This document shows, in pieces, positions 7,504 through 64,000 of a DNA stretch of 64,000 nt. This DNA comes from Eledone cirrhosa (lineage: Eukaryota), in contig OZ024766.1 of the NCBI GenBank assembly GCA_964016885.1, positions 19,530,001-19,594,000 of the forward strand, in the 5' to 3' direction. The notes beneath the pieces were generated by a model that did not search any database, was not told the origin of the DNA, and saw only the letters and a program-made list of their open reading frames with translations. The position numbers were made by a program, and so were the translations under genes. How positions within the stretch are numbered: the first letter of the stretch is position 1; each line of letters opens with the position of its first letter.

Positions 7504-8781
7504 TTATGGGTTCTCAGTCATATGGGTACGTTTGTGTCTAGTTAAGGTACCACCTTCAGTGAATGATTTACCACAGATATCACAGTGGTGTGGCTTGTCT
7601 CCTGTATGGGTACGTAAGTGTTTAGTTAAGTTACTTCTTTCAGTGAATGATATACCACAGGTATCACAGTGGTATGGCTTGTCTCCTGTATGTATACGTT
7701 TGTGTCTAGTTAATGTACCATTTATAAAGAATGATTTACCACAGATATCACAGTGGTATGGCTTGTCTCCTGTATGGGTACGTAAGTGTGAAGTTAAGTT
7801 ACTACTATCAGAGAATGATTTACCACAGATATCACAGTGGTATGGCTTGTCTCCTGTATGTATACGTTTGTGTTTAGTTAAGGTACTACTAACAGAGAAT
7901 GATATACCACAGATATCACAGTGGTATGGCTTGTCCCCTGTATGTATACGTATGTGTGTAGTTAAGTGACTACTATCAGAGAATGATTTACCACAGATAT
8001 CACAGAGGTGTGGCTTCTCTCCTGTATGTATACGTTTGTGGGAAGTTAAGTGGCTACTTTGAGAGAATGATTTACCACAGATTTCACAGTGGTATGGCTT
8101 GTCTGCTGTATGTATATGTTTGTGTTTAGTTAAGTGACTACTATCAGAGAATGATATACCACAGATATCACAGTGGTATGGCTTGTCTCCTGTATGTATA
8201 CGTTTGTGTCTAGTTAAGGTACTACTTCGAGAGAATGATTTACCACAGATACCACAGTGGTGTGGCTTCTCTCCTGTATGCATACGTTTGTGGCAAGTTA
8301 ACTGACCACTTTGAGAGAATGATTTACCACAGATATCGCAGTGGTATGGCTTGTCTCCTGTATGTATACGTTTGTGTGGAATTAACTGACCATTTCGAGA
8401 GAATGATTTACCACAGATTTCGCAGTGGTATGGCTTGTCTCCTGTATGTATACGTTTGTGGCAAGTTAAGTGGCTACTTTGAGAGAATGATTTACCACAG
8501 ATATCGCATTGGTATGGCTTGTCTCCTGTATGGGTACGTTTGTGTGGAATTAACTGACCACTTCCAGAGAATGATTTACCACAGATTTCGCAGTGGTATG
8601 GCTTGTCTCCTGTATGTATACGTATGTGTCTAGTTAAGTTACTACTTATATAGAATGATTTACCACAGATATCACAGTGATATGGTTTCTCTCCTCTAGA
8701 CTTTGGCACCTCTTCTGGAATAGCCATATCTCTAGACAATGTTTCACATTTAATCTTCTTTTCACTCAATTTAGTTTCCAT
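7504..8781 (-). CDS. C2H2 zinc-finger protein A, 425 aa, 32-aa leader + 14 fingers
   Basis: Open ORF of CxxC-x12-HxxxH repeats with TGD/EKPY linkers, 84-bp period; aacATGG start with an in-frame upstream stop. Confidence 0.95.
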
Positions 8782-9156
8782 GTTTCTTCTTCCCTTGGCA
8801 GAATTTACAGATGTTATTCTTGTCTTATTTTATATATTATATTCCTGAAGATATTTCTTCAGCTATATTTCCGGCAACGGTGATCTCAGTCAAGATCTGA
8901 AGATGATGCAAACTTCTTTCTGATCCAAGTTTAGTTAAGATTCAAAATCATCTTGTAAATATTTCAGATGCTGATGAAACAATTCTTTTCCAAGACACAC
9001 AGTTCTGAGGAAATATCTCACAGTAATTCTGCCATAGATTTAAATAAACAGTGTTATATGAGTTCCTTATCAAAAGCTTTAGTCTTGAAATGATGATAAA
9101 TAGAGGGGATGTATTCAAGATTAAAAAATTATTTTATCCCAATGTCATCTGATATT

Positions 9157-9176
9157 CTGAAATAAGAAAGAAACAG
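9157..9176 (-). promoter_or_regulatory. Candidate 3' splice acceptor of the ZNF coding exon
   Basis: Minus strand ctgtttctttcttatttcAG|AATATC; invariant at 18028, 24830, 31736, 38745, 44594, 53071. Confidence 0.65.
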
Positions 9177-9706
9177 TATGAGATAATAGAGAATACTTTA
9201 GAAACAGAGATAGATTTAATGATAAACTGTAGATATCAACTTTCCTGTCCAGAGTTATTCTCTCCAATGTAAGCAGTGATATTCCATGATGCTCTATAAA
9301 CTATATCCTTCTAACTTTTGGGAGGTCTGCCCTATACCCTTTACCCAAGAACTTCACTCTTATATGACATTCTAACATGGTAATTGTCTGAGACCTGAGA
9401 TGTGTAACCTGACAGTTCCTTGAGTAACAGTTCTTTCTACCTGGAAGGGGAAAAGTGCTGTGTAATTGCTTGGTAACAGTCAAAGGATTCTCACACATGG
9501 CTACCCTAGGCACCCCAATAACATGACTTGTGTTAGGCTTGTAGACACAATTAGTAGGAATTTATATTCGTAGGGATTACATAATTTTAGCACTATTTTT
9601 TATCTTTTCTGTTTGGATGCCTTTCCTCTCATCAACCACTTTACAGCAAGGACTGGGTGTACTGTTTGTGACACTAGAGAGGTTATTTTAATGGTCTTAA
9701 GAGCTC

Positions 9707-9769
<63 letters not shown>

Positions 9770-9823
9770 CATATAGATTTCACCAGAGATAGAAAACGAG
9801 AAGTAATCATTTGCTTACATAAT

Positions 9824-11360: not shown

Positions 11361-11425
11361 ACTCACATCTATGAATGATTGAGGAAGAGCTGGTGAAACA
11401 CTATAGCAATATGTGTTTCACCCCT
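11361..11425 (-). promoter_or_regulatory. Candidate non-coding 5' exon end / splice donor with adjacent 10-bp hairpin
   Basis: Minus strand ATAGAT|GTGAGT at 11366 (also 3427, 45986, 54685; GTGTGT in the other units); GGTGAAACAC..GTGTTTCACC stem nearby. Confidence 0.35.
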
Positions 11426-11970: not shown

Positions 11971-12010
<40 letters not shown>

Positions 12011-12135
12011 GTCCGAACAGCAAGTACAGTCTCGCAGTGAATGGTAAGTGTTAGAGTAAGAATTATTTTATTCCTGGTTGTATTAATAACATTACAAATA
12101 TCACAAATATCAAATAGATAAAAATATATATACGT

Positions 12136-12168
<33 letters not shown>

Positions 12169-12412
12169 AATATATACACACACACCAGGGCCGAAAAAGA
12201 CATAGAGAAAGTACAGGTTCGCAGTGAATATCTCAAGAATTATTTTATTCCTAGTTTTGTAAATAACATTACAAATTATACTTAGACGAAGAATGTGGAG
12301 TAGTAAATATATATATATATACACATAAATATGTGTATATATATATATATATATACATACACATAAATATGTGTATATATATATACACATAAATATGTGT
12401 ATATATATATAT

Positions 12413-13690
12413 ATGACTTGGGCTTTGGTGTTGGTGTAGAGCAGTGATATCAGGTCCACTATCCTCTTAGGGATTCCATAAGCCTGTAAGATCTTCATCA
12501 GGCAGTAACGGTCCACAGAATCAAAGGCCTTCCTAAAGTCAATGAAAACCATGACCGCAGGAAGGCACTTTGCTCTAGCTCCCTCTAATATCCTCCTCAG
12601 CATCAGGATGTGACTGGTGGTTGATCTACCCTCTCTGAAGCCGTTCTGGTTGTCCCTGAGCTTCTTCTCCATCTCAGGCTGGATCCTGTTAAGAATCATC
12701 CTGTTGAGGGTCTTTGCCACAAGCCCAAGTCATTACACCTGATGGGATGACAGAGTTCTTTGAGATACTGGGTGGAGTGCTCCAGGGAGATACATTGGCT
12801 CCCTACCTTTTTATCATCGTAGTGGACTATTGTATGCGCCTTGCACTGGAGAAACACCAGGACTCTGGCTTTACTGTAGCACCGGCTCAGAGCAGGAGAG
12901 TTGGGGCGAAAAAGGTATCGGATGCTGAATTTGCCGACGACATAGTTTTGGTGACAAATACAGTGAAGTGGGCAGAGGATTTGATGCGGGAGGTTGAGAC
13001 TGTGTCGATGAGTGTGGGGCTGAGAATGAATGAGACTAAAACAAAATATCTGGTAGAGAATGTTGAAAAGCCAGAGGGGATCACTAATGTAGGCGGGAAG
13101 CCACTGGAATTGGTTGAGGACTTCCTGTATTTGGGAGCAAAGATTGGGAATACGGAAGATGATGTGGTTGAGAGGAAGAGCAAGGCCTGGGCAGCGTGTC
13201 ACAGCTTGAGATCGGTGTGGAAGTCGGACCTTCGTAGAGACCTGAAAATCCGCCTCTTCATTGCTGTAGTGGAGTCTGTGCTGCTGTATGGGTCTGAGAC
13301 TTGGATACTGACCAAGAGACTCACTCAGATGGTGGATGGGTGCTACACGAGAATGCTGAGGATGGCTCTGAACATTAATCAGTATACACTGAGGATGAAA
13401 AACTCAGAGCTGTATGGGAGCATCCCAAAAGTCAGCTCAAAAGTGACACAGAGGAGACTGAGGTTGGCTGGACATGCTCACCGACATCCAGAGTTGACAT
13501 TGCACTCAGTGCTCCTTTGGGAGCCCCTACATGGACACACTAGAAGAGGAAGACCAAGATTAACATATGTTGATGCCCTAAGGACAGACACTGGTCTGTT
13601 GGAGATGCAGGATATGGCAGCGATAATGAGGGACAGAGACCGCTGGAGAGAACTCGTCCATGGATCTCGGGAATTTTACCCGCCTTAGAT
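12413..13690 (+). mobile_element. Young RTE-clade LINE, 5'-truncated with an inverted 5' segment (12413-12720 minus; 12721-13688 plus)
   Basis: Minus piece QNGFREGRST, FIDFRKAFDSV; plus piece GVLQGDTLAPYLF, FADD, LLYGSETW, GRPRLTY; both stop-free and contiguous in RT; empty (TA)n site in other units. Confidence 0.95.
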
Positions 13691-13692
13691 AG

Positions 13693-13723
<31 letters not shown>

Positions 13724-15554
13724 TACCAATGAATACAGTGAAGAATTTAGTATAAAAGTTGGTGTTCATCAAGGCTCTGTCCTTAGCCCCCTCCTATTTA
13801 TTATTGCCCTTCAGGCTAAAACAGAGGAGTTTAAGACTGGCTGCCCATGGGAACTTCTATACACAGATGATCTAACAGCTGAACTAGATAAGAAATTCCA
13901 AACATGGAAGCATGGCCTAGAATCAAATGGCCTTAAAGTTAACTTGTCAAAGACTAAAGTTCTAGTATGTAGGAAGGAAAATAGGGCACAGGTGCCCGCT
14001 GGGAAATGGCTATGTTCAGTGTGTAGGAAAGGAGTAGGTAGAAATTCCATTTTATGTCCCAAATACAAACTATGGGTACATAACAGACGTACTGGGAACA
14101 CAGGCCAGCTATCTAAGAACGTAGGTTTTATATGTGGCTGATGCTCAGGTGCAATAAGTAGCAAGTTCCAGACGTTGGACCTTCAATGTATCCATACCCA
14201 GGGAGGCAAGGCATTCAGAGTATGGTAGATGCTTGATGGAGGGTATTCACTTGGTTGCACGTCTCTAAACAATTTCCAGGAGGTCAATGATCTGAGCAAG
14301 ACAGGGGTTCCAGACTCGTGATGCAATTTCTAAGTGTGGCCGCACCATAGCTATTTACAGCTTTAAATAGATAGATAAATGCATGGTTGTACACTTGTAC
14401 ACAGCCAGCTTGAGTTGCCAGTCCGTGGTCCATTGCTGCATTGTGTCCAGGTTCTGTCCTTTTTATCTCAAGGGACAGCTTGGTGTCATCTGAATATTTC
14501 AGTACTGTGACACTCTTTAAGATGCCATCTATGTCATTAATAGATGTGTAACGGAATTCTCCTATAAATTACCTGGCAAAGATTCAAAACCGAATCTAAG
14601 AGTTCTCGCATCTGGGACCACCTATCGTTGCGAGTTTCCCACCATTGTCCTGTCAAGAGACAACAATGATGAACATACATGCCACTTGACCTGTGACCCC
14701 AGCTTCAAGATAGCTGAAACTCACATGGCTACTCATAAATCAACCCTGTATACACATCTAGCTATAGGGTTATTATAAATACAAGTACAAAGGGAATCCA
14801 GAAGCCAGACCACGAAGCAGTAGTCCTTAAGAGAATAATAATGGGAAACATTCACATTCTACAGACCTCTTGGGGTCTGCAGACTTCTACTGACCTTTTA
14901 CTCTATCTCTCTCCTGGCCTTACTGGCTCTCACCTTCTTGGCCACAGACTACGCCACCAAACAAGAGAGACCAAAGCAGCAGTCCTTGAGAGGAATAACA
15001 AATACTAAGGATACACACACACTCAGTAGGTTTCATTATACTGTTTACTTCTGGGTTTTATCTATTCTTTTGTCTTCATGTTGAATCACTTCTCGTGTAT
15101 CGTTGTATTGATACATACATACACGCTAGCTCGAAGTAGCTAGTCAGAAAATTGATGTAGTGATAATTCCTGTCACAATTTTTATTACTTGATATTCAAT
15201 GTAGACACAAGTTAATATTGTTATTGTAAAATAAACATTGTCAACATCACAATTCTGGCATTATTCTTTTTATCATTCATACACAAAAGAATACATTTAT
15301 CCACTATATATGCAACAAACAAAAGGGGACACAAATTTCTACACACATACATTCACATATATATAGCGTATGTAAATTCTGAACAATACAGATTTGTCAG
15401 CACAAGTCTTGGTTACAACTTCTACAAATAAAATGAAAGGAGAAGAATTTCTTAGTAAAACAGTTTTATTCAAAATATTAACATTGGTGGCACAATTTTG
15501 GGTGAGTGGTATGGTTTTTATCTTGTCTGATTGTGTTGCATTAAGTAATCTTTA

Positions 15555-16420
15555 CAAGAGAATGATTTACCACAAACATCACAGTGATATAGTTCCTCTC
15601 CTGTATATGTTAGTGTCTAGTGAAGCCCCAACATTTAGACAATGATTTACCAGACATTACAGTGACATGGTTCCTCTCCTGTATGTGTTAGTGTCTAGTG
15701 AAGCCCCAACATTTAGACAATGATTTACCACAGACATCACAGTGATATAGTTCCTCTCCTGTATATGGTAGTGTCTAGTGAAGCCACAACATTTAGACAA
15801 TGATTTACTGCAGACATCACAGTGATATGGTTCCTCTCCTGTATATGGTAGTGTCTAGTGAAGGCACAACATTTAGACAATGATTTACTGCAGACATCAC
15901 AGTGATATGGTTCCTCTCCTGTAAATGTTAGTGTCTAGTGAAGCCACAACATTTAGAGAATGATTTACTGCAGACATCACAGTGATATGGTTCCTCTCCT
16001 GTAAATGTTAGTGTCTAGTGAAGCCACAACATTTAGACAATGATTTACTGCAGACATTACAGTGACATAGTTCCTCTCCTGTAAATGTTAGTGTCTAGTG
16101 AAGCCACAACATTTAGAGAATGATTTACTGCAGACATCACAGTGATATAGTTCCTCTCCTGTAAATGTTAGTGTCTAGTGAAGCCACAACATTTAGAGAA
16201 TGATTTACTGCAGACATCACAGTGATATAGTTCCTCTCCTGTAAATGTTAGTGCCGAATGAAGTGAGTTATTTCAGAGAATGATTTCCCACAGATATCAC
16301 AGTGATATGGTTTCTCTCCTGTATGTATATGTTTGTGTCTAGTTGAACAAGCTATCATGGATAACAATTTACCACAAATATTACAGTGATATGGCTTTTC
16401 TCCAGTACATATATGTTTGT
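15555..16420 (-). repeat. 80-bp zinc-finger-derived minisatellite (9 copies) plus two decayed fingers, 3' of gene B
   Basis: Period 80 (aagccacaac at 15781, aaggcacaac at 15861). Confidence 0.9.
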
Positions 16421-20576: not shown

Positions 20577-22429
20577 TACCAATGAATACAGTGAAGAATT
20601 TAGTATAAAAGTTGGTGTTCATCAAGGCTCTGTCCTTAGCCCCCTCTTATTTATTATTGCCCTTCAGGCTAAAACAGAGGAGTTTAAGACTGGCTGCTCA
20701 TGGGAACTTCTATACACAGATGATCTAACAGCTGAACTAGATAAGAAATTCCAAACATGGAAGCATGGCCTAGAATCAAAAGGCCTTAAAGTTAACTTGT
20801 CTAAGACTAAAGTTCTAGTATGTAGGAAGGAAGATTGGGCACAGGTGCCCTCTGTGAAATGGCCATGTTCAGTGTGTAGGAAAGGAGTAGGTAGTAATTC
20901 CATTTTATGTCCCAAATACAAACTATGGGTACATAACAGACGTACTGGGAACACAGGCCAGCTATCTAAGAACGTAGATTTTATATGTGGCTGATGCTCA
21001 GGTGCAATAAGTAGCAAGTTCCAGACGTCGGACCTTCAATATATCCATACCCAGGGAGGCAAGGCATTCAGAGTATGGTAGATGCTTGATGGAGGGTATT
21101 CACTTGGTTGCACGTGTCTAAACTATTTCCAGGAGGTCAATGTTCTGAGCAAGATAGGGGTTCCAGACTCGTGATGCAATTTCTAAGTGTGGCCGCACCA
21201 TAGCTATATACAGCTTTAAATAGATAGATAAATGCATGGTCGTACACTTGTACACAGCCAGCTTGAGTTGCCAGTCCGTGGTCCATTGTTGCATTGTGTC
21301 CAGATCTATAGTGTTCAGGATCTGTCCTTTTTATCTTAATAGACAGCTTGATGTCATCTGCATATTTCAGTACTGTGACATACTTTAAGTTGCCATCTAT
21401 GTAATTAATAGATGTGTAACGGAATTCTCCTATAAATTACCTGGCGAAGATTCAAAACCGAATCTAAGAGTTCTCGCATCTGGGACCACCTATCGTTGCG
21501 AGTTTCCCACCATTGTCCTGTCAAGAGACAACAATGATGAACATACATGCCACTTGACCTGTGACCCCAGCTTCAAGATAGCTGAAACTCACATGGCTAC
21601 TCATAAATCAACCCTGTATACACATCTAGCTATAGGGTTATTATAAATACAAGTACAAAGGGAATCCAGCAGCCAGACCACGAAGCAGTAGTCCTTAAGA
21701 GAATAATGATGTGAAACATTCACGTTCTACAGACCTTGGGGTCTGCAGACTTCTACTGACCTTTTACTCTATCCCTCTCTCCTGGCCTTACTTGATCTCA
21801 CCTTCTCGGCCACAGACTACACCACCAGACAATAGAGACCGAAGCAGCAGTCCTTGAGAGGAATAACAAATACTAAGGATACACACACACTCAGTAGGTT
21901 TCATTATACTGTTTACTTCTGTGTTTTATCTATTCTTTTGTCTTCCTGTTGAATCACTTCTCGTGTATCGTTGTATTGATACATACATACACGCTAGCTC
22001 GAAGTAGCTAGTCAGAAAATTGATGTAGTGATAATTCCTGTCACAATTTTTATTACTTGATATTCAATGTAGCAACAAGTTAATATTGTTATTGTAAAAT
22101 AAACATTGTCAACATCACAATTCTGGCATTATTCTTTTTATCATTCATACACAAAAGAATACATGTATCCACTACATATGCAACAAACAAAAGGGGACAC
22201 AAATTTCTACACACATACATTCACATATATATAGCGTATGTAAATTCTGAACAATACAGATTTGTCAGCACAAGTCTTGGTTACAACTTCTACAAATAAA
22301 ATGAAAGGAGAAGAATTTCTTAGTAAAACAGTTTTATTCAAAATATTAACAACATTGGTGGCACAATTTTGGGTGAGTGATATGGTTTTTATCTTGTCTG
22401 ATTGTGTTGCATTAAGTAATCTTTACAAG

Positions 22430-23055
22430 AGAATGATTTACCACAGACATCACAGTGATAAAGTTCCTCTCCTGTATATGTTAGTGTCTAGTGAAGCCAC
22501 AACATTTAGACAATGATTTACCACAGACATCACAGTGATATAGTTCCTCTCCTGTATATGTTAGTGTCTAGTGAAGCCACAACATTTAGAGAATGATTTA
22601 CCACAGACATCACAGTGATATGGTTCCTCTCCTGTAAATGTTAGTGTCTAGTGAAGCCCCAACATTTAGAGAATGATTTACTGCAGACATCACAGTGATA
22701 TAGTTCCTCTCCTGTAAATGTTAGTGTCTAGTGAAGCCACAACATTTAGAGAATGATTTACTGCAGACATTACAGTGATATAGTTCCTCTCCTGTAAATG
22801 TTAGTGTCTAGTGAAGCCACAACATTTAGAGAATGATTTACTGCAGACATTACAGTGATATAGTTCCTCTCCTGTAAATGTTAGTGTCTAGTGAAGCCAC
22901 AATATTTAGAGAATGATTTACTGCAGACATTACAGTGATATGGTTTCTGTCCTGTATGTATGTGTTTGTGTCTAATTGAACAAGCTATCATGGATAACAA
23001 TTTACCACAAATATTACAGTGATATGGCTTTTCTCCAGTGTATATATGTTTGTAT
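22430..23055 (-). repeat. 80-bp dead-finger minisatellite (6 copies) plus decayed fingers, 3' of gene C
   Basis: Same unit, period 80. Confidence 0.9.
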
Positions 23056-27201: not shown

Positions 27202-29217
27202 CACACACCAGGTCCGAACAAGATATAGAGAAAGTACAGGTTCGCAGTGAATATCTCAAGAATTATTTTATTCCTAGTTTTGTAAATAACATTACAAATT
27301 ATACTTAGACGAAGAATGTGGTGTAGTAAACATATATATATATAAACACATAAATATATGTGTATATATATATATAGAATTACCAATGAATACAGTGAAG
27401 AATTTAGTATAAAAGTTGGTGTTCATCAAGGCTCTGTCCTTAGCCCCCTCTTATTTATTATTGCCCTTCAGGCTAAAACAGAGGAGTTTAAGACTGGCTG
27501 CTCATGGGAACTTCTATACACAGATGATCTAACAGCTGAACTAGATAAGAAATTCCAAACATGGAAGCATGGCCTAGAATCAAAAGGCCTTAAAGTTAAC
27601 TTGTCTAAGACTAAAGTTCTAGTATGTAGGAAGGAAGATTGGGCACAGGTGCCCTCTGGGAAATGGCCATGTTCAGTGTGTAGGAAAGGAGTAGGTAGTA
27701 ATTCCATTTTATGTCCCAAATACAAACTATGGGTACATAACAGACGTACTGGGAACGCAGGCCAGCTATATAAGAACGTAGATTTTATATGTGGCTGATG
27801 CTCAGGTGCAATAAGTAGCAAGTTCCAGACGTCGGACCTTCAATGTATCCATACCCAGGGAGGCAAGGCATTCAGAGTATGGTAGATACTTGATGGAGGG
27901 TATTCACTTGGTTGCACGTCTCTAAACAATTTCCAGATCAATGTTCTGAGCAAGATAGGGGTTCCAGACTGGTGATGCAAATTCTAAGTGTGGCCGCACC
28001 ATAGCTATTTACAGCTTTAAATAGATAGATAAATGCATGGTCGTACACTTGTACACAGCCAGCTTGAGTTGCCAGTCCGTGGTCCATTGCTGCATTGTGT
28101 CCAGATCTATAGTGTTCAGGATCTGTCCTATTTATCTCAAAGGACAGCTTGATGTCATCTGCATATTTCAGTACTGTGACACTCTTTAAGTTGCCATCTA
28201 TGTCATTAATAGATGTGTAACGGAATTCTCCTATAAATTACTTGCCGAATCTAAAAGTTCTCGCATCTGGGACCACCTATCGTTGCGAGTTTCCCACCAT
28301 TGTCCTGTCAAGAGACAACAATGATGAACATACATGCCACTTGACCTGTGACCCCAGCTTCAAGATAGCTGAAACTCACATGGCTACTCATAAATCAACC
28401 CTGTATACACATCTAGCTATAGGGTTATTATAAATACAAGTACAAAGGGAATCCAGCAGCCAGACCACGAAGCAGTAGTCCTTAAGAGAATAATGATGTG
28501 AAACATTCACGTTCTACAGACCTCTTGGGGTCTGCAGACTTCTACTGACCTTTTACTCTATCCCTCTCTCCTGGCCTTACTTGATCTCACCTTCTCGGCC
28601 ACAGACTACAACACCAGACAATAGAGACCGAAGCAGCAGTCCTTGAGAGGAATAACAAATACTAAGGATACACACACACTCAGTAGGTTTCATTATACTG
28701 TTTACTTCTGTGTTTTATCTATTCTTTTGTCTTCCTGTTGAATCACTTCTCGTGTATCGTTGTATTGATACATACATACACGCTAGCTCGAAGTAGCTAG
28801 TCAGAAAATTGATGTAGTGATAATTCCTGTCACAATTTTTATTACTTGATATTCAATGTAGCAACAAGTTAATATTGTTATTGTAAAATAAACATTGTCA
28901 ACATCACAATTCTGGCATTATTCTTTTCATCATTCATACACAAAAGAATACATTTATCCACTACATATGCAACAAACAAAAGGGGACACAAATTTCTACA
29001 CACATACATTCACATATATATAGCGTATGTAAATTCTGAACAATACAGATTTGTCAGCACAAGTCTTGGTTACAACTTCTACAAATAAAATGAAAGGAGA
29101 AGAATTTCTTAGTAAAACAGTTTTATTCAAAATATTAACAACATTGGTGGCACAATTTTGGGTGTGTGGTATGGTTTTTATCTTGTCCGATTGTGTTGCA
29201 TTAAGTAATCTTTACAA

Positions 29218-29765
29218 GAGAATGATTTACCACAGACATCACAGTGATAAAGTTCCTCTCCTGTATATGTTAGTGTCTAGTGAAGCCACAACATTTAGAC
29301 AATGATTTACCACAGACATCACAGTGATATAGTTCCTCTCCTGTATATGTTAGTGTCTAGTGAAGCCACAACATTTAGACAATGATTTACTGCAGACATC
29401 ACAGTGATATAGTTCCTCTCCTGTAAATGTTAGTGTCTAGTGAAGCCACAACATTTAGAGAATGATTTACTGCAGACATTACAGTGATATAGTTCCTCTC
29501 CTGTAAATGTTAGTGTCTAGTGAAGCCACAACATTTAGAGAATGATTTACTGCAGACATTACAGTGATGTAGTTCCTCTCCTGTAAATGTTAGTGTCTAG
29601 TGAAGCCACAATATTTAGAGAATGATTTACTGCAGACATTACAGTGATATGGTTTCTGTCCTGTATGTATGTGTTTGTGTCTAATTGAACAAGCTATCAT
29701 GGATAACAATTTACCACAAATATTACAGTGATATGGCTTTTCTCCAGTATATATATGTTTGTATG
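29218..29765 (-). repeat. 80-bp dead-finger minisatellite (5 copies) plus decayed fingers, 3' of gene D
   Basis: Same unit, period 80. Confidence 0.9.
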
Positions 29766-34338: not shown

Positions 34339-36185
34339 CCAATGAATACAGTGAAGAATTTAGTATAAAAGTTGGTGTTCATCAAAGCTCAGTCCTTAGC
34401 CCCCTCCTATTTATTATTGCCCTTCAGGCTAAAACAGAGGAGTTGAAGACTGGCTGCCCATGGGAACTTCTATACACAGATTATCTAACAGCTGAACTAG
34501 ATAAGAAATTCCAAACATGGAAGCATGGCCTAGAATCAAAAGGCCTTAAAGTTAACTTGTCTAAGACTAAAGTTCTAGTATGTAGGAAGGAAAATAGGGC
34601 ACAGGTGCCCTCTGGGAAATGGCCATGTTCAGTGTATAGGAAAGGAGTAGGTAGAAATTCCATTTTATGTCCCAAATACAAACTATGGGTACATAACAGA
34701 CGTACTGGGAACACAGGCCAGCTATCTAAGAACGTAGGTTTTATATGTGGCTGATGCTCAGGTGCAATAAGTAGCAAGTTCCAGACGTTGGACCTTCAAT
34801 GTATCCATACCCAGGAAGGCAAGGCATTCAGAGTATGGTAGATGGTTGATGGAGCATATTCACTTGGTTGCACGTCTCTAAACAATTTCCAGATCAATGT
34901 TCTGAGCAAGACAGGGGTTCCAGACTGGTGATGCAAATTCTAAGTGTGGCCGCACCATAGCTATTTACAGCTTTAAATAGATAGATAAATGCATGGTCGT
35001 ACACTTGTACACAGCCAGCTTGAGTTGCCAGTCCGTGGTCCATTGCTGCATTGTGTCCAGATCTATAGTGTTCAGGATCTGTCCTTTTTATCTCAAGGGA
35101 CAGCTTGGTGTCATCTGAATATTTCAGTACTGTGACACTCTTTAAGTTGCCATCTATGTCATTAATAGATGTGTGAACGGAATTCTCCTATAAATTACCT
35201 GGCGAAGATTCGAAACCAAATCTAAAAGTTATCATATCTGGGACCAACTATCGTTGCGAGTTTCCCACCATTGTCCTGTCAAGAGACAACAATGATAAAC
35301 ATACATGCCACTTGACCTGTGACCCCAGCTTCAAGATAGCTGAAACTCACATGGCTACTCATAAATCAACCCTGTATACACATCTAGCTATAGGGTTATT
35401 ATAAATACAAGTACAAAGGGAATCCAGCAGCAAGACCACGAAGCAGTAGTCCTTCAGAGAATAATGATGTGAAACATTCACATTCTACAGACCTCTTGGG
35501 GTCTACAGACTTCTACTGACCTTTTACTCTATCTCTCTCTCCTGGCCTTACTGGCTCTCACCTTCTTGGCCACAGACTACACCACCAAACAAGAGAGACC
35601 GAAGCAGCAGTCCTTGAGAGGAATAACAAATACTAAGGATACACACACACTCAGTAGGTTTCATTATACTGTTTACTTCTGTGTTTTATCTATTCTTTTG
35701 TCTTCATGTTGAATCACTTCTATTGTATCGTTGTATTGATACATACATACACGCTAGCTCGAAGTAGCTAGTCAGCAAATTGATGTAGTGATAATTCCTG
35801 TCACAATTTTTATTACTTGATATTCAATGTAGCAACAAGTAAATATTGTTATTGTAAAATAAACATTGTCAACATCACAATTCTGGCTTTATTCTTTTTA
35901 TCATTCATACACAAAAGAATACATTTATCCACTACATATGCAACAAACAAAAGGGGACACAAATTTCTACACACATACATTCACATATATATAGCGTATG
36001 TAAATTCTGAACGCTACAGATTTGTCAGCACAAGTCTTGGTTACAACTTCTACAAATAAAATGAAAGGAGAAGAATTTCTTAGTAAAACAGTTTTATTCA
36101 ACATATTAACATTGGTGGCACTATTTTGGGTGAGTGATATGGTTTTTATCTTGTCTGATTGTGTTGCATTAAGTAACCTTTACAA

Positions 36186-36995: not shown

Positions 36996-38357
36996 TTATG
37001 GGTTCTCAGCCATATGGGTATATTTGTGTCTAGTTAAACTACTTGATACAGAGAATGATTTACCACAGATATCGCAGTCGTATGGCTTGTCTCCTGTATG
37101 GGTACGTAAGTGTTTAGTTAAGTAAGTACTATCGGAGAATGATTTACCACAGATATCACAGTGGTATGGCTTGTCTCCTGTATGGGTACGTAAGTGTTTA
37201 GTTAAGTAACTACTTGCAGAGAATGATTTACCACAGATATCACAGTGGTATGGCTTGTCTCCTGTATGGGTATATTTGTGTCTAGTTAAACTACTTGATA
37301 CAGAGAATAATTTACCACAGATATCACAGTGGTATGGGTTGTCTCCTGTATGTATACGTTTGTGGCAAATTAAGTGACTATTTCGAGAGAATGATTTACC
37401 ACAGATATCACAGTGGTATGGCTTGTTTCCTGTATGGGTACGTAAGTGTTTAGTTAAGTAACTACTTGCAGAGAATGATTTACCACAGATATCACAGTGG
37501 TATGGCTTGTCTCCTGTATGGGTATATTTGTGACTAGTTAAACTACTTGAAACAGAGAATAATTTACCACAGATATCACAGTGGTATGGCTTGTCTTGTG
37601 TATGGGTATATTTGTGTCTAGTTAAACTACTTGAAACAGAGAATAATTTACCACAGATATCACAGTGGTATGACTTGTCTCCTGTATGGGTACGTAAGTG
37701 TTTAGTTAAGGTACTACCATCAGAGAATGATATACCACAGATATCACAGTGGTATGGCTTGTCTCCTGTATGTATACGTTTGTGTCTAGTTAAGTGACTA
37801 CTTTTAGAGAATGATATACCACAGATATTACAATGGTATGGCTTGTCTCCTGTATGTATACGTATGTGTGTAGTTAAGTGACTACTTCGAGAGAATGATC
37901 TACCACAGATATCACAACGGTGTGGCTTCTCTCCTGTATGTATACGTTTGTGGCTAGTTAAGTTGCTACTTTGAGAGAATGATTTACCACAGATTTCGCA
38001 GTGGTATGGCTTGTCTGCTGTATGTATACGTAAGTGTGTAGTTAAGGTACTACTATCAGAGAATGATTTACCACAGATATCACAGTGGTATGGCTTGTCT
38101 CCTGTATGTATACGTTTGTGTGGAATTAACTGACCACTTTGAGAGAATGATTTACCACAGATATCGCAGTGGTATGGCTTGTCTCCTGTATGCGTACGTT
38201 TGTGTGGAATTAACTGACAATTTTGAGAGAATGATTTACCACAGATATCACAGTGATATGGTTTCTCTCCTCTAGACTTTGGCATCTCTTCTGGAATAGC
38301 CATATCTCTAGACAATGTTTCACATTTAATCTTCTTCTCACTCAATTTAGTTTCCAT
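36996..38357 (-). CDS. C2H2 zinc-finger protein E, 453 aa, 15 fingers
   Basis: Intact ORF, same leader and finger scaffold. Confidence 0.95.
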
Positions 38358-40722: not shown

Positions 40723-43276
40723 CAGGTCCGGAAATGATATAGAGAAAGTACAGGTTCGCAGTGAATATCTCAAGAATTATTTTATTCCTAGTTTTGTAAA
40801 TAACATTACAAATTATACTTAGACGAAGGATGTGGAGTAGTAAATATATATATATATACACATAAATATGTGTATATATATATATATATACACATAAATA
40901 TGTGTATATATATATATATAGAATTACCAATGAATACAGTGAAGAATTTAGTATAAAAGTTGGTGTTCATCAAGGCTCTGTCCTTAGCCCCCTCCTATTT
41001 ATTATTGCCCTTCAGGCTAAAACAGAGGAGTTTAAGACTGGCTGCCCATGGGAACTTCTATACACAGATGATCTAACAGCTGAACTAGATAAGAAATTCC
41101 AAACATGGAAGCATGGCCTAGAATCAAAAGGCCTTAAAGTTAACTTGACTAAGACTAATGTTCTAGTTTGTAGGAAGGAAAATAGGGCACAGGTGCCCTC
41201 TGGGAAATGGCCATGTTCAGTGTATAGGAAAGGAGTAGGTAGAAATTCCATTTTATCTCCCAAATACAAACTATGGGTACATAACAGACGTACTGGGAAC
41301 ACAGGCCAGCTATCTAAGAACGTAGATTTTATATGTGGCTGATGGTCAGGTGCAATAAGTAGCAAGTTCCAGACGTTGGACCTTCAATGTATCCATACCC
41401 AGGAAGGCAAGGCATTTAGAGTATGGTAGATGGTTGATGGAGCGTATTCACTTGGTTGCACGTCTCTAAACAATTTCCAGGAGGTCAATGATCTGAGCAA
41501 GATAGGGGTTCCAGACTGGTGATGCAAATTCTAAGTGTGGCCGCACCATAGCTATTTACAGCTTTAAATAGATAGATAAATGCATGGTCGTACACTTGTA
41601 CACAGCCAGCTTCAGTTGCCAGTCCGTGGTCCATTGCTGCATTGTATCCAGATCTAGTGTTCACGATCTGTCCTTTTTATCTCAAGGGACAGCTTGATGT
41701 CATCTGCATATTTCAGTACTGTGACATACTTTAAGTTGCCATCTATGTCATTAATAGATTTGTAACGGAATTCTCCTATAAATAACCTGGCGAAGATTCA
41801 AAACCGAATCTAAAAGTTCTCGCATCTGGGACCACCTATCGTTGCGAGTTTCCCACCATTGTCCTGTCAAGAGACAACAATGATGAACATACATGTCACT
41901 TGACCTGTGACCCCAGCTTCAAGATAGCTGAAACTCACATGGCGACTCATAAATCAACCCTGTATACACATCCTTCTAGCTATAGGGTTATTATAAATAC
42001 AAGTACAAAGGGAATCCAGCAGCCAGACCACGAAGCAGTAGTCCTTAAGAGAATAACGATATGAAACATTCACATTCTACAGACCTCTTGGTGTCTACAG
42101 ACTTCTACTGACCTCTCTGGACCTTTTACTCTATCTCTCTCTCCTGGCCTTACTGGCTCTCACCTTCTTGGCCACAGACTACACCACCAGACAATAGAGA
42201 CCAAAGCAGCAGTCCTTGAGAGGAATAACAAATACTAAGGATACACACACACTCAGTAGGTTTCATTATACTGTTTACTTCTGTGTTTTATCTATTCTTT
42301 CGTCTTTCTGTTGAATCACCTCTATTGTATCGTTGTATTGATACATACATACACGCTAGCTCGAAGTAGCTAGTCAGCAAATTGATGTAGTGATAATTCC
42401 TGTCACAATTTTTATTACTTGATATTCAATGTAGCAACAAGTTAATATTGTTATTGTAAAATAAACATTGTCAACATCACAATTCTGGCATTATTCTTTT
42501 TATCATTCATACACAAAAGAATACATTTATCCACTACATATGCAACAAACAAAAGGGGACACAAATTTCTACACACATACATTCACATATATATAGCGTA
42601 TGTAAATTCTGAACAATACAGATTTGTCAGCACAAGTCTTGGTTACAACTTCTACAAATAAAATGAAAGGAGAAGAATATCTTAGTAAAACAGTTTTATT
42701 CAAAATATTAACATTGGTGGCACTATTTTGGGTGAGTGATATGGTTTTTATCTTGTCTGATTGTGTTGCATTAAGTAATCTTTACAAGAGAATAATTTAC
42801 CACAGACATCACAGTGATATAGTTCCTCTCCTGTATATGTTAGTGTGTAGTGAAGCCCCAACATTTAGACAATGATTTACTGCAGACATTACAGTGATAT
42901 GGTTCCTCTCCTGTAAATGTTAGTGTCTAGTGAAGCCACAACATTTAGAGAATGATTTACTGAAGACATTACAGTGATATAGTTCCTCTCCTGTGAATGT
43001 TAGTGCCGAATGAAGTGAGTTATTTCAGAGAATGATTTCCCACAGATATCACAGTGATATGGTTTCTGTCCTGTATGTATGTGTTTGTGTCTAGTTGAAC
43101 AAGCTATCATGGATAACAATTTACCACAAATATTACAGTGATATGGCTTTTCTCCAGTATATATATGTTTGTATGAAGGTAAGTAGCAATGAAAGAGAAT
43201 AGCACAGTGGCATGGCTTCTCATATGAATGTATTTGTGTTTAATTCACCATTTTCAGACAATGAGATATTTTTTGG

Positions 43277-49085: not shown

Positions 49086-50537
49086 CGAATCTAAAAGTTC
49101 TTGCATCTGGGACCACCTATCGTGGCGAGTTTCCCACCATTGTCCTGTCAAGAGACAACAATGATGAACATACATGCCACTTGACCTGTGACCCCAGCTT
49201 CAAGATAGCTGAACCTCACATGGCTACTCATAAATCAACCCTGTATACACATCCTTCTAGCTATAGGGTTATTATAAATACAAGTACAAAGGGAATCCAG
49301 CAGCCAGACCACGAAGCAGTAGTCCTTAAGAGAATAATGATGTGAAACATTCACATTCTACAGACCTCTTGGTGTCTACAGACTTCTACTGACCTTTTAC
49401 TCTATCTCTCTCCTGGCCCTCACCTTCTCGGCCACAGACTACGCCACCAAAGAAGAGAGACCGAAGCAGCAGTCCTTGAGAGGAATAACAAATACTAAGG
49501 ATACACACACACTCAGTAGGTTTCATTATACTGTTTACTACTGTTTTTTATCTATTCTTTTGTCTTCCTGTTGAATCACTTCTATTGTATCGTTGTATTG
49601 ATACATACATACACGCTAGCTCGAAGTAGCTAGTCAGCAAATTGATGTAGTGATAATTCCTGTCACAATTTTTATTACTTGATATTCAATGTAGTAACAA
49701 GTGAATATTGTTATTGTAAAATAAACATTGTTAACATCACAATTCTGGCATTATTCTTTTTATCATTCATACACAAAAGAATACATTTATCCACTACATA
49801 TGCAACAAACAAAAGGGGACACAAATTTCTACACACATACATTCACATATATATAGCGTATGTAACTTCTGAACGATACAGATTTGTCAGCACAAGTCTT
49901 GGTTACAACTTCTACAAATAAAATGAAAGGAGAAGAATTTCTTAGTAAAACAGTTTTATTCAAAATGTTAACATTGGTGGCACTATTTTGGGTGAGTGAT
50001 ATGATTTTTATCTTGTCTGATTGTGTTGCATTAAGTAATTTTTACAAGAGAATGATTTACCACAGACATCACAGTGATATAGTTCCTCTCCTGTATATGT
50101 TAGTGTGTAGTGAAGCCACAACATTTAGACAATGATATACCACAGACATCACAGTGATATAGTTCCTCTCCTGTATATGTTAGTGTCTAGTGAAGCCCCA
50201 ACATTTAGACAATGATTTACTGCAGACATCACAGTGATATGGTTCCTCTCCTGTATATGTTAGTGCCGAATGAAATGAGTTATTTCAGAGAATGATTTCC
50301 CACAGATATCACAGTGATATGGTTTCTCTCCTGTATGCATATGTTTGTGTCTAGTTGAACAAGCTATCATGGATAACAATTTACCACAAATATTACAGTG
50401 ATTGGCTTTTCTCCAGTATATATATGTTTGTATGAAGTTAATGCAGCAATGAAAGAGAATAGCACAGTGGCATGGCTTCTCATATGAATGTATTTGTGTT
50501 TAATTCACCATTGTCAGACAATGAGATATTTTTTTTG

Positions 50538-55486: not shown

Positions 55487-55659
55487 ATTGGTAAAATATG
55501 ACGTTCGGGAAATTGAAACTAGTTTTTCTGACAAGTGAATGTGTTTGTTTTTTGTTTTTTTACAATGAAATTTACGATACACTCTTTGTTTATTTACAAC
55601 AGGTCTCTATAGTGATATGGTGTTAATTAGTATTGCGTGTGTGATTATTTTCTCTTATA

Positions 55660-60289: not shown

Positions 60290-60451
60290 CCCAGGTCCGA
60301 ACAGCAAGTACAGTCTCGCAGTGAATGGTAAGTGTTAGAGTAAGAATTATTTTATTTCTGGTTGTATAAATAACATTACAAATATCAAATAGATAAAAAA
60401 ATATATACGTACACACACACACAAATGTATATATATATATATATATTTTCG

Positions 60452-60888
60452 ACAGGTTGTGAGTTCAATTCCCAGACCGGGTGATGTGTTGTTTCCTTGA
60501 GCAAGACACTTTATTTCACGTTGCTCAAGTTTATTCAGCTGTAGAAATGAGATGATATGGACTGGGGTCCATATAATTCCACTGTAAAGTGGTCGTGGAG
60601 GTGCCACGGCAAAAAAGCACCCAGCACTCACTGTAAAGTGGTCGTGGAGGTGCCACGGCAAAAAAGCACCCAGCACTCACTGTAAAGTGGTCGTGGGGGT
60701 GCCACGGCAAAAAAGCACCCAGCCCTCACTGTAAAGTGGTCGTGGAGGGGCCACAGCAGAAAAGTACCCAGCACTCACTGTAAATGAGGTTGGTGTTAGG
60801 AAGGGCATCCAGCTGTAGAAATCAAGTCAGAATCAGTTCCCATCCCACCCTTGCAAGCAGGGGAAAGCGGACGTAAAATGATGATGAT
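60452..60888 (+). mobile_element. SINE (B box, CORE/Meta-like domain, internal 49-bp x4 repeat, RTE 3' tail)
   Basis: gagttcaattcc; ccttgagcaagacacttta; 49-bp repeats at about 60580-60780; ends gcggacgtaaaatgatgatgat. Confidence 0.88.
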
Positions 60889-63201
60889 CATATATACACA
60901 CCAGGTCCATAAAAGATTTAGAGAAAGTGAATATCTCAAGAATTATTTTATTCCTAAATAACATTACAAATTATAATTAGATCAAAGCTCAGTACTTAGC
61001 CCCCTCCTATTTATTATTGCCCTTCAGGCTAAAACAGAGGAGTTTAAGACTGGCTGCCCATGGGAACTTCTATACACAGATTATCTAACAGCTGAACTAG
61101 ATAAGAAATTCCAAACATGGAAGCATGGCCTAGAATCAAATGGCCTTAAAGTTAACTTGTCTAAGACTAAAGTTCTAGTATGTAGGAAGGAAAATAGGGC
61201 ACAGGTGCTCTCTGGGAAATGGCCATGTCCAGTGTATAGGAAAGGAGTAGGTAGAAATTCCATTTTATGTCCCAAATACAAACTATGGGTACATAACAGA
61301 CATACTGGGAACACAGGCCAGCTATCTAAGAACGTAGGTTTTATATGTGGGTGATGCTCAGGTGCAATAAGTAGCAAGTTCCAGACGTTGGACCTTCAAT
61401 GTATCCATACCCAGGAAGGCAAGGCATTCAGAGTATGGTAGATGGTTGATGGAGGGTATTCACTTGGTTGCACGTCTCTAAACAATTTCCAGGAGGTGAA
61501 TGTTCTGAGCAAGATAGGGGTTCCAGACTGGTGATGCAAATTCTAAGTGTGGCCGCACCATAGCTATTTACAGCTTTAAATAGATAGATAAATGCATGGT
61601 CGTACACTTGTACACAGCCAGCTTGAGTTGCCAGTTCGTGGTCCATTGCTGCATTGTGTCCAGATCTATAGTGTTCAGGATCTGTCCTTTTTATCTCAAG
61701 GGACAGCTTGATGTCATCTGCATATTTCAGTACTGTGACACTCTTTAAGTTGCCATCTATGTCATTAATAGATGTGTAACGGAATTCTCCTATAAATTAC
61801 CTGGCAAAGATTTGAAACCGAATCTAAAAGTTATCGTATCTGGGACCACCTATCGTTGCGAGTTTCTCACCATTGTCCTGTCAAGAGACAACAATGATGA
61901 ACATACATGCCACTTGACCTGTGACCCCAGCTTCAAGATAGCTGAAACTCACATGGCTACTCATAAATCAACCCCGTATACACATCCTTCTAGCTATAGG
62001 GTTATTATAAATACAAGTACAAAGGGAATCCAGCAGCCAGACCACAAAGCAGTAGTGCTTGAGGGAGTAATGATGTGAAACATTCACATTCTACAGACCT
62101 CTTGGGGTCTACAGACTTCTACTGACCTTTTACTCTATCCCTCTCTCCTGGCCTTACTGGCTCTCACCTTCTTGGCCACAGACTACGCCACCAAACAAGT
62201 GAGACCGAAGCACCAGTCCTTGAGAGGAATAACAAATACTAAGGATACACACACACTCAGTAGGTTTCATTATACTGTTTACTTCTGTGTTTTATCTATT
62301 CTTTTGTCTTCCTGTTGAATCACTTCTCGTGTATCGTTGTATTGATACATACATACACGCTAGCTCGAAGTAGCTAGTCAGCAAATTGATGTAGTGATAA
62401 TTCCTGTCACAAATATATTACTTGATATTCAATGTAGCAACAAGTTAATATTGTTATTGTAAAATAAACATTGTCAACATCACAATTCTTGCATTATTCT
62501 TTTTATCATTCATACACAAAAGAATAAATTTATCCACTACATATGCAACAAACAAAAGGGGACACATATTTCTACACACATACATTCACATATATATAGC
62601 GTATGTAAATTCTGAACACTACAGATTTGTCAGCACAAGTCTTGGTTACAACTTCAACAAATAAAATGAAAGGAGAAGAATTTCTTAGTAAAACAGTTTT
62701 ATTCAAAATATTAACATTGGTGGCACTATTTTGGGTGAGTGATATGGTTTTTATCTTGTCAGATTGTGTTGCATTAAGTAATCTTTACAAGAGAATAATT
62801 TACCACAGACATCACAGTGATATGGTTCCTCTCCTGTATTAGTTAGTGTCTAGTAAAGCCACAACATTTAGACAATGATTTACCACAGACATCACAGTGA
62901 TATAGTTCCTCTCCTGTAAATGTTAGTGCCGAATGAAGTGAGTTATTTCAGAGAATGATTTCCCACAGATATCACAGTGATATGGTTTCTGTCCTGTATG
63001 TATGTGTTTGTGTCTAATTGAACAAGCTATCATGGATAACAATTTACCACAAATATTACAGTGATATGGCTTTTCTCCAGTATATATATGTTTGCATGAA
63101 GTTAATGCAACAATGAACGAGAATAGCACAGTGGCATGGCTTCTCATATGAATGTATTTGTGTTTAATTCACCATTTTCAGACAATGAGATATTTTTTTG
63201 G

Positions 63202-64000
63202 TTATGGGTTCTCAGCCATATGGGTATATTTGTGTCTAGTTAAACTACTTGATACAGAGAATGATTTACCACAGATATCGCAGTCGTATTGCTTGTCTCC
63301 TATATGGGTATGTAAGTGTTTAGTTAAGTTACTACTATCGGAGAATGATTTACCACAGATATCACAGTGGTATGGCTTGTCTCCTGTATGGGTACGTAAG
63401 TGTTTAGTTAAGGTACTACTATCAGAGAATGATTTACCACAGATATCACAGTGGTATGGCCTGTCTCCTGTATGTATACGTTTGTGTCTAGTTAAGTTAC
63501 TACTTATATAGAATGATTTACCACAGATATCACAGTGGTATGGCTTGTCTCCAGTATGGGTACGTTCGTGTTTAGTTAAGGTACCACCTTCAGAGAATGA
63601 TTTACCACAGATATCACAGTGGTATGGCTTGTCTCCTGTATGGGTACGTAAGTGTTTAGTTAAGTAACTACTTGCAGAGAATGATTGACCACAGATATCA
63701 CAGTGGTATGTCGTGTCTCCTGTATGTATAAGTTTGTGTTTAGTTAAGGTACTACTATCAGAGAATGATCTACCACAGATATCACAGTGGTATGGCTTGT
63801 CTCCTGTATGTATACGTTTGTGTCTAGTTAAGCTAGCACTTCCAGAGAATGATTTACCACAGATATCACAGTGATATGGCTTGTCTCCTGTATGTGTACG
63901 TTTGTGGCAAGTTAAGTTACTACTATCAGAGAATGATCTACCACAGATATCACAGTGGTATGGCTTGTCTCCTGTATGTGTACGTTTGTGTCTAGTTAAG
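63202..64000 (-). CDS. C2H2 zinc-finger protein H, partial (C-terminal 9 complete fingers plus part of another; start beyond window)
   Basis: Manually translated stop-free frame ending [10 protein letters not shown]; missing from the ORF track because its start lies outside the window. Confidence 0.9.

What the first reader, a model, noticed from the sequence alone, without database searches (positions are those of the whole stretch)
7504..64000. KRAB-less ZNF array acting as a combinatorial generator of DNA-binding specificities
Seen: eight paralogs have near-identical flanks and finger scaffold ([14 protein letters not shown]...HTGDK), yet the complete ones have 14, 13, 15, 16, 15, 10 and 24 fingers. 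Variation is concentrated at helix positions -1 to 6 (QSSHLTC, RSSTLTR, DSSTLTK, VSSSLTR, RSIHLTR, ASSYLTK, EGGTLTR), and the same finger types are reused in different orders across genes. Established: positions -1, 2, 3 and 6 contact bases; PRDM9 and vertebrate KRAB-ZNF arrays evolve this way; octopus has large clustered C2H2 expansions. Inference: a fast-evolving repeat/TE-recognition system that works without a known effector domain.
Basis: partly seen in the sequence, partly recalled or inferred. Interest (0 to 1): 0.75.

Follow-up and report, generated by a model that had tools for sequence, protein, structure and literature searches.

The report
Fast-shuffling octopus zinc-finger gene cluster
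Eight neighbouring zinc-finger genes in an octopus-like genome share and rearrange their DNA-reading units and differ mostly at the amino acids that touch DNA, likely through selection for new binding targets, which would probably be repeats or jumping genes; this kind of gene cluster is already known, and its targets and expression are untested.

Summary
Observation largely confirmed. The window holds eight minus-strand C2H2 zinc-finger genes, 115 intact fingers in all. They are part of at least 47 such genes nearby in an octopus-like 3-Gb genome. Two corrections: gene 2 has 12 intact fingers plus a stop-broken 13th, and the hypervariable positions are -1, 3 and 6, while position 2 is barely elevated. 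Pairwise dN/dS at -1/3/6 is about 7.5, or 2.4-2.5 when each variant is counted once; zinc ligands are invariant. A non-coding 80-bp dead-finger repeat behind each gene is a built-in control: similar scaffold diversity, but 14-fold less at those codons. Fingers recombine within and between genes, mostly as colinear blocks. No effector domain was found. The 32-residue leader is shared by many octopus ZNF genes but evolves nearly neutrally (dN/dS 0.91), with a weak hint at a SUMO-type motif. Repeat or transposon binding was not tested; it is published only as a prediction for octopus ZNFs overall. Domain-less shuffled ZNF clusters are known from insects, and this scan noted the same pattern elsewhere in this genome (e1-9557371). 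New member of a known kind.

The parts
7504..8781 (-). ZNF gene 1: 32-aa leader + 14 C2H2 fingers, 425 aa
16595..17719 (-). ZNF gene 2: leader + 12 intact fingers; 13th unit broken by TGA at its second Cys, 374 aa
23160..24521 (-). ZNF gene 3: leader + 15 fingers, 453 aa
29869..31314 (-). ZNF gene 4: leader + 16 fingers, 481 aa; shares 13 of gene 3's 15 fingers at up to 1 nt difference
36996..38357 (-). ZNF gene 5: leader + 15 fingers, 453 aa
43277..44218 (-). ZNF gene 6: leader + 10 fingers, 313 aa
50538..52655 (-). ZNF gene 7: leader + 24 fingers, 705 aa
63202..64000 (-). ZNF gene 8, last 9 of 13 fingers (start codon 395 nt beyond the window edge)
8686..8781 (-). 32-codon N-terminal leader (example; the seven genes whose start lies in the window each have one); no Pfam match; near-neutral except Met1-Glu2; carries an IKCE motif
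9157..9178 (-). putative splice acceptor 375 nt upstream of the start codon (16 of 19 pyrimidines); in-frame stop lies between it and the ATG, so inferred to join an untranslated exon
   Evidence: inferred, no RNA
7018..7303 (-). non-coding 80-bp dead-finger minisatellite 3' of gene 1 (finger unit with a 4-nt loss and a stop)
15557..16323 (-). 80-bp dead-finger minisatellite 3' of gene 2 (9.6 copies)
22428..22956 (-). 80-bp dead-finger minisatellite 3' of gene 3 (6.6 copies)
29217..29665 (-). 80-bp dead-finger minisatellite 3' of gene 4 (5.6 copies)
36185..36794 (-). 80-bp dead-finger minisatellite 3' of gene 5 (7.6 copies)
42787..43075 (-). 80-bp dead-finger minisatellite 3' of gene 6 (3.6 copies)
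50047..50336 (-). 80-bp dead-finger minisatellite 3' of gene 7 (3.6 copies)
62790..62999 (-). 80-bp dead-finger minisatellite 3' of gene 8 (2.6 copies)
12010..14138 (.). reverse-transcriptase (RVT_1) fragments on both strands between genes 1 and 2; the only clear Pfam family in the intergenic frames scanned

Best explanation
This is a young tandem cluster of octopus-type C2H2 zinc-finger genes with no known effector domain, whose 84-bp fingers are gained, lost and exchanged within and between genes, likely by unequal crossover and gene conversion, while selection likely keeps the zinc ligands fixed and favours new residues at helix positions -1, 3 and 6, so each gene is predicted to bind different DNA, probably young repeats or transposons. 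Shown: the anatomy, finger-number change, chimeric genes, excess amino-acid change at -1/3/6, invariant Cys/His, a near-neutral leader, and no domain hit. Inferred: that the genes are translated from the leader Met in one coding exon; that the excess reflects positive selection. Least supported (about even odds): that the targets are repeats or transposons, and that the proteins act by occupancy or through cofactors recruited without a folded domain.
For: dN/dS over the 115 window fingers is 7.5 at -1/3/6 (gene bootstrap 6.5-8.7), 1.3 at position 2, 1.1 at other scaffold sites and 0 at C, C, H, H, F, L. Each of 8 genes alone gives 5.5-12.5 at -1/3/6. Counting every distinct codon variant once, which does not depend on a finger tree, gives 2.36 at -1/2/3/6, p=0.0007. 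Synonymous diversity at interleaved codons -2, 4, 5 and 7 is only 0.032, so an old local genealogy does not explain the peaks. Non-coding control: diversity at -1/3/6 is 0.035 in 30 dead units against 0.508 in 119 coding fingers, while other sites are 0.067 against 0.083. Recombination: r2 falls with distance (rho -0.20, permutation p=0.005); 48-60% of site pairs fail the four-gamete test. Two copies with identical 5' flanks have 24 and 26 fingers, and gene 1 shares a 99.7% flank with a paralogue with which it shares 0 of 14 fingers. No effector: no Pfam hit in the leader, only RVT_1 among 148 minus-strand intergenic frames, no PR/SET hit on this contig. Met1 is kept in 118 of 119 leaders and Glu2 in 119 of 119, while the rest has dN/dS 0.91. 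11 of 14 database homologues fetched begin at this Met and the other 3 within 8 residues; 9 of the 10 looked up are named Octopus proteins. Predicted octopus ZNF motifs are enriched in TE libraries (PMC10547256 section 6).
Against: No binding, target or expression data for these genes. Gene conversion breaks dN/dS significance tests (PMC5519329 section 25), and my bootstrap treats related genes as independent. Synonymous diversity is itself raised at the contact codons (0.28-0.29 against 0.14), so dN/dS against local dS is only 1.5-2.5. Over the wider cluster the distinct-variant count saturates (1.36, p=0.053), and one-step changes are uninformative in the window (13 events, p=0.56) and modest in the cluster (1.85, p=0.025). 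The control dropped 5 of 35 units of a different dead-finger type; with them diversity at -1/3/6 is 0.176, and the dead units may be younger. Non-ligand scaffold sites evolve near neutrally (1.1), 11 of 115 fingers have Pro at position 6, and 4 of 47 genes have internal frameshifts, so part of the repertoire may be dead or non-binding. Octopus-expanded C2H2 genes are mostly expressed in nervous tissue (PMC12513265), which also fits gene regulation.
Confidence: 0.65

Rival explanations
1. The genes are ordinary fast-evolving transcription factors for neural or developmental host genes; diversification is real but is not driven by repeats.
For: Octopus-specific expanded C2H2 genes are expressed most in optic lobe, supraesophageal mass and nerve cord and fall in neural co-expression modules (PMC12513265). 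No repressor domain was found.
Against: Arrays are rebuilt between copies whose flanks differ by 0-3%, faster than stable host targets would be expected to allow (inference). ZNF number correlates with retroelement number across animals (PMC10547256 abstract).
Confidence: 0.15
2. No arms race: gene conversion homogenises the scaffold and selection only resists homogenisation (or constraint is relaxed) at contact codons, keeping a stock of old helix types that are reshuffled neutrally.
For: Synonymous diversity is raised at contact codons and local dN/dS is 1.5-2.5. Scaffold is near neutral. Sharing is block-wise. One-step changes show no excess in the window. Frameshifted and stop-bearing copies exist.
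Against: Relaxed constraint alone cannot give dN/dS above 1. Interleaved synonymous sites are nearly invariant (0.032). The dead-finger control has a flat helix. One-step changes in the cluster favour contact sites (23 N, 7 S, p=0.025).
Confidence: 0.13
3. The finger-number differences and part of the copy number are assembly artefacts (uncollapsed haplotypes, mis-joined repeats), or the cluster is mostly pseudogenes.
For: A 52-kb block of seven genes just left of the window occurs twice with 0-0.9% flank difference, which could be two haplotypes. No independent long reads were examined.
Against: The eight window genes differ by 0.7-4.7% in flanks and by many substitutions. 119 of 119 open-frame units keep C, C, H, H when cut at DNA level. 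Premature stops seen all sit in the last or second-last unit.
Confidence: 0.04
4. The genes are PRDM9-derived and act in recombination-hotspot placement.
For: Same signature of homogenised scaffold with variable contact residues. The share of amino-acid diversity at contact sites is 0.35-0.43, above conserved fish PRDM9-beta (0.16-0.21) in PMC5519329 Table 1.
Against: No PR/SET hit on this contig (14 hits elsewhere), no KRAB hit (a weak negative) and no domain in intergenic frames. The share is below human (0.69) and mouse (0.91) PRDM9. Fingers within a gene are only 83-86% identical.
Confidence: 0.03

Closest known systems
Octopus-specific C2H2 ZNF expansions (PMC12513265, text parts 1-3 of 7; PMC9068888, passages; PMC10547256, sections 4, 6, 7, 10)
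   Same: Clustered multi-finger C2H2 genes. The leader's named homologues are Octopus sinensis, O. vulgaris and O. bimaculoides ZNF proteins. Variable base-contact residues and predicted TE-motif enrichment are reported for octopus ZNFs in aggregate.
   Different: In the parts I read, dN/dS was tested for zebrafish only. I saw no finger-level shuffling analysis, no dead-finger control and no description of the 32-aa leader for octopus. Supplements (entropy figure, motif tables) were not read and may bear on this.
Hemipteran ZF271-like / APEZ families (PMC6444547, passages)
   Same: No KRAB or any other domain, tandem clusters of 4-8 genes, 3-45 fingers, array variation likened to shuffling, pseudogenes, cofactor unknown.
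   Different: Independent insect expansion; those clustered genes differ in exon structure and have expression support, whereas these appear to have one coding exon and expression is untested.
Cyprinid FiNZ-ZNFs (PMC10547256 sections 4, 7, 10)
   Same: Lineage-specific clustered ZNFs with a short N-terminal peptide (28 aa against 32 aa here) and positive selection at contact residues.
   Different: FiNZ is described as highly conserved and on its own exon, and knockdown derepresses TEs. The leader here is in the finger exon, evolves at dN/dS 0.91, and function is untested.
Vertebrate KRAB-ZNF clusters
   Same: Tandem duplication, finger gain and loss, positive selection at contact residues (as summarised in PMC10547256 and PMC6444547).
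   Different: No KRAB domain found, so no evident KAP1/TRIM28 route.
PRDM9 zinc-finger minisatellite (PMC5519329, passages, sections 10 part 1 and 25)
   Same: 84-bp units under concerted evolution with diversity focused at DNA-contact sites.
   Different: No PR/SET or KRAB found; a multigene cluster with exchange between genes; contact share 0.35-0.43 is at the low end of full-length PRDM9 values (my site set -1, 2, 3, 6 may differ from theirs, which the sections read did not list).

Membership tests
Octopus tandem C2H2 ZNF expansion | tandem C2H2 fingers with TGEKP-type linkers | tested here: met
   zf-H2C2_2 and zf-C2H2, 14 stretches each in gene 1
Octopus tandem C2H2 ZNF expansion | closest relatives are Octopus ZNF proteins | tested here: met
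   leader profile: 16 hits; 9 of 10 looked up are named Octopus, plus P0002 O. bimaculoides
Octopus tandem C2H2 ZNF expansion | genomic clustering of recent paralogues | tested here: met
   47 leader-bearing genes in the 464 kb read
Octopus tandem C2H2 ZNF expansion | expression in neural, embryonic or gonadal tissue | not testable with these tools
KRAB-ZNF | KRAB domain N-terminal to the array | tested here: not met
   no hit in protein or leader or in 148 intergenic frames; genome search found none but its controls were also silent; homologues start at the leader Met
KRAB-ZNF | diversifying selection at base-contact residues | tested here: met
   with the gene-conversion caveat
KRAB-ZNF | binding and silencing of transposons | not testable with these tools
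   no binding data and no recognition-code model or TE library on hand
PRDM9 | PR/SET domain (with KRAB and SSXRD) in the same gene | tested here: not met
   14 PR/SET hits in the genome, none on this contig; none in intergenic frames
PRDM9 | concerted evolution with diversity focused at contact sites | tested here: met
   share 0.35-0.43 against Table 1 of PMC5519329; intermediate value
FiNZ-ZNF-like (short conserved N-terminal effector peptide) | lineage-wide short N-terminal peptide | tested here: met
   150 scored matches of 598 candidates on many contigs; strong hit in 6 of 30 ZNF loci chosen by finger score alone
FiNZ-ZNF-like (short conserved N-terminal effector peptide) | peptide under strong purifying selection | tested here: not met
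   dN/dS 0.91 (0.77-1.10) over 59 independent pairs; 0.96 with pairs chosen on upstream DNA
FiNZ-ZNF-like (short conserved N-terminal effector peptide) | peptide on a separate exon | tested here: not met
   leader is in the same open frame as the fingers

The most novel reading that the evidence does not exclude
The 32-residue leader is an octopus-specific micro-effector: its IKCE motif (a SUMO-acceptor consensus, label recalled) is SUMOylated and recruits heterochromatin machinery, so this recombining cluster is a KRAB-independent, rapidly reprogrammed transposon-silencing system. Hints: Lys11 plus Glu13 change about half as often as the rest of the leader (16 of 286 sites, p=0.005) and Lys11 is kept in 104 of 119 leaders. 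Against: the leader overall is near neutral, Glu7 and position 19 are as slow, only 15 of 41 non-redundant leaders keep the motif at 10-13 (26 of 41 anywhere), and most leaders were found with a query containing the motif.
Probability: 0.12. Interest if true: 0.75.

Novelty: new member of a known kind. Interest (0 to 1): 0.36.

Why it matters
Cephalopods have among the largest ZNF repertoires, and whether these serve neural regulation or transposon defence is open (PMC12988792, passages). This cluster gives a concrete, very young test case: a measured signal of diversification at -1/3/6, a rare internal non-coding control, chimeric paralogues that differ in a few fingers, and a defined leader peptide that can be mutated. 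It does not by itself show a new mechanism.

Tried and rejected
Expression: no RNA holder listed. Contigs of four runs of unknown kind, one study, covered all 30 bins of the stretch laid, coding and non-coding alike, and gave nothing on transcription or splicing. Full-length homologue search returned mostly vertebrate ZNFs by generic finger score and was uninformative. Leader as a conserved effector domain: rejected on dN/dS; one search included one non-homologous locus, dropped. Atlas search with a homologue's leader gave no usable hit. Dead fingers as conversion donors: none of 12 dead-unit helix 15-mers occurs in coding fingers. The 3'-flank comparison was mis-anchored for some genes and is not used. 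The DNA-level unit walk stopped early in 7 of 47 genes with non-84-bp linkers, so stop counts are lower bounds. No tree-based, per-branch selection test was done, so substitution counts rest on pairwise and distinct-variant methods only. Target prediction was not attempted (no recognition model or TE library). The 2015 octopus genome paper was not held and is known here only through citing papers. Literature searches listed no paper whose title or abstract describes this leader or a site-wise selection test on an octopus ZNF cluster; the library lacks most subscription journals, and no supplements were read.
Full report
Observation. Six-frame translation shows eight minus-strand open frames made of tandem C2H2 fingers. 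Their intact finger counts are 14, 12, 15, 16, 15, 10, 24 and, for the copy cut by the window edge, 9 of 13; 115 fingers lie in the window. The 600 nt upstream of the start codons are 95.3-99.3% identical, whereas fingers within a gene are 83-86% identical. The window is G000:C27:19530001-19594000 of a 3.0-Gb genome. In 464 kb read around it there are 47 genes of this type. The organism is octopus-like: the N-terminal peptide's named homologues are Octopus ZNF proteins.

Where the variation sits. Entropy is 2.71, 2.63 and 2.51 bits at helix -1, 3 and 6, but 1.20 at position 2, no more than non-contact positions between the two His (119 fingers including 4 outside the window). With kappa 2.1 taken from flanks, pairwise dN/dS over the 115 window fingers is 7.5 at -1/3/6 (gene bootstrap 6.5-8.7), 1.3 at position 2, 1.1 at other scaffold sites and 0 at the four zinc ligands plus Phe and Leu; each gene alone gives 5.5-12.5. 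The ligand invariance is not a product of my pattern search: units cut at DNA level keep C, C, H, H in all 119 open-frame units of the eight genes.

Robustness. Gene conversion makes such tests unreliable (PMC5519329 section 25), so I ran three checks. First, counting each distinct codon once gives 2.36 at -1/2/3/6 (p=0.0007), 0.95 elsewhere and 0.05 at ligands in the window. It saturates in the wider cluster (1.36, p=0.053). One-step changes are too few in the window (13, p=0.56) and give 1.85 (p=0.025) in the cluster. Second, synonymous diversity at codons -2, 4, 5 and 7, interleaved with the contact codons, is 0.032, so a deep local genealogy is unlikely; but synonymous diversity at contact codons themselves is raised, and dN/dS against local dS is 1.5-2.5. 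Third, each gene is followed by a non-coding 80-bp repeat that is a frame-broken finger. In 30 such units diversity at -1/3/6 is 0.035 against 0.508 in coding fingers, and 0.067 against 0.083 elsewhere. Five of 35 units of a different dead-finger type were dropped; with them the first figure is 0.176. Taken together, diversifying selection at -1/3/6 is likely, and its size is uncertain (about 2 to 7).

How arrays are rebuilt. 40 of 119 fingers have an identical copy in another window gene, 33 in colinear blocks. Copies with identical 5' flanks differ in finger number (24 against 26; 12 against 15 intact fingers), and gene 1 has a 99.7% identical flank but no shared finger with one paralogue and 10 of 14 shared with another whose flank differs by 3.1%. 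Flank distance barely predicts array sharing (rho 0.09, 36 genes). Within fingers, linkage decays with distance (rho -0.20, p=0.005) and 48-60% of site pairs show four gametes. Assortment is not free: 48 triplets at -1/3/6 against 75 +/- 3 expected. Unequal crossover and conversion within and between genes are the inferred mechanism. A 52-kb block beside the window is duplicated almost exactly and could be a haplotype duplicate, which limits what the closest pairs prove.

Is there an effector? Each protein starts with a 32-residue leader in the finger frame; in gene 1 an in-frame stop lies 48 nt upstream and the best acceptor-like site 375 nt upstream. The leader has no Pfam match. 148 minus-strand frames from five of the intergenic stretches gave only reverse transcriptase. 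PR/SET hits exist elsewhere but not on this contig; a KRAB search found nothing, a weak negative. The leader recurs on many contigs (150 scored of 598 candidates) and gave strong hits in 6 of 30 ZNF loci picked by finger score, some of which lacked their N-terminus. A profile found 16 proteins among 1.84 billion; of 14 fetched, 11 begin at this Met, and 9 of 10 looked up are Octopus. Across 119 leaders Met1 (118) and Glu2 (119) are fixed, but the rest has dN/dS 0.91 (0.77-1.10; 0.96). So translation likely starts there and the leader is mostly a spacer, unlike FiNZ or KRAB. A residual hint is slower change at Lys11 and Glu13 of an IKCE motif (p=0.005), a SUMO-type consensus by recall; only 15 of 41 non-redundant leaders keep it in place, and the sample was drawn with a query that contains it.

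Function. No call bears on targets or expression of these genes. Wells et al. [quoted passage not shown] Holzinger et al. (PMC12513265; parts 1-3 of 7) find octopus-expanded C2H2 genes mainly in nervous tissue. A 2026 essay weighs both readings (PMC12988792; passages). I put repeat or transposon targeting at about even odds within the best explanation.

Comparison and novelty. It works like KRAB-ZNF clusters and the PRDM9 array in how it evolves, but fails membership of both (no KRAB, no PR/SET). The contact share of diversity, 0.35-0.43, lies between conserved fish PRDM9-beta and human or mouse PRDM9 (PMC5519329 Table 1). Domain-less, clustered, shuffled ZNF families with pseudogenes are described in the milkweed bug and pea aphid (PMC6444547; passages), and large octopus C2H2 expansions are known (PMC9068888; passages). 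My seven searches listed nothing on the leader or on a site-wise test in an octopus cluster, but supplements were not read and the library is incomplete.

Verdict. A real, young, rapidly diversifying ZNF cluster: a new member of a known kind. Interest 0.36. The added value is the measured selection signal with an internal non-coding control and the finding that the shared leader is not a conserved domain. The bold reading, a SUMO-site micro-effector driving KRAB-independent transposon silencing, has probability about 0.12.

Noticed in passing
window 7018-7303, 15557-16323, 22428-22956, 29217-29665, 36185-36794, 42787-43075, 50047-50336, 62790-62999: Each gene is followed by dead fingers beyond its stop, including an 80-bp frame-broken finger that has expanded as a non-coding minisatellite of 2.6-9.6 copies; it shows the copy-number machinery acts without coding selection.
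   Followed up: yes
G000:C27:19431808-19477954 and 19484537-19529533 (L004-L013): A 52-kb block of seven ZNF genes occurs twice with 0-0.9% flank difference; one gene pair has 24 against 26 fingers. Very recent duplication or uncollapsed haplotype.
   Followed up: partly
G000:C27:19.41-19.66 Mb and 19.94-20.07 Mb: Two sub-clusters face in opposite directions; the DNA between 19.664 and 19.900 Mb was not read.
   Followed up: no
window 16595-16597 and paralogues in L005, L010-L011, L026-L038: The same TGA at the second Cys of the last finger occurs in 12 of 47 genes, an inherited or converted truncation that removes only the terminal finger.
   Followed up: partly
L108, L111, L112, L119, L123, L126, L128, L129: A second ZNF subfamily (8 of 30 loci picked by finger score) has only about 5 residues between its Met and the first finger-like unit, i.e. 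almost no leader, or an upstream exon not seen.
   Followed up: no
leaders genome-wide, e.g. window 8776-8781: Glu at position 2 is invariant in 119 of 119 leaders although the rest drifts; this may reflect start-codon context or N-terminal acetylation (both labels recalled).
   Followed up: partly
window 55658-60022 and 446-2146: Very long microsatellite-like tracts: a 4.4-kb TG/TA tract with a 56-bp higher period and a 1.7-kb AT tract.
   Followed up: no
window 2432-3373, 10948-11312, 19267-19567, 26067-26364, 32659-33302, 39631-40041, 45491-45932, 54073-54631: A 20-bp minisatellite with 15-48 copies, usually next to a 32-bp repeat, lies upstream of each gene and varies in copy number.
   Followed up: no
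first fingers of the cluster genes, e.g. window 52550: Many first fingers carry Pro at helix position 6, which would be expected to disturb the recognition helix; these may be non-binding caps.
   Followed up: no
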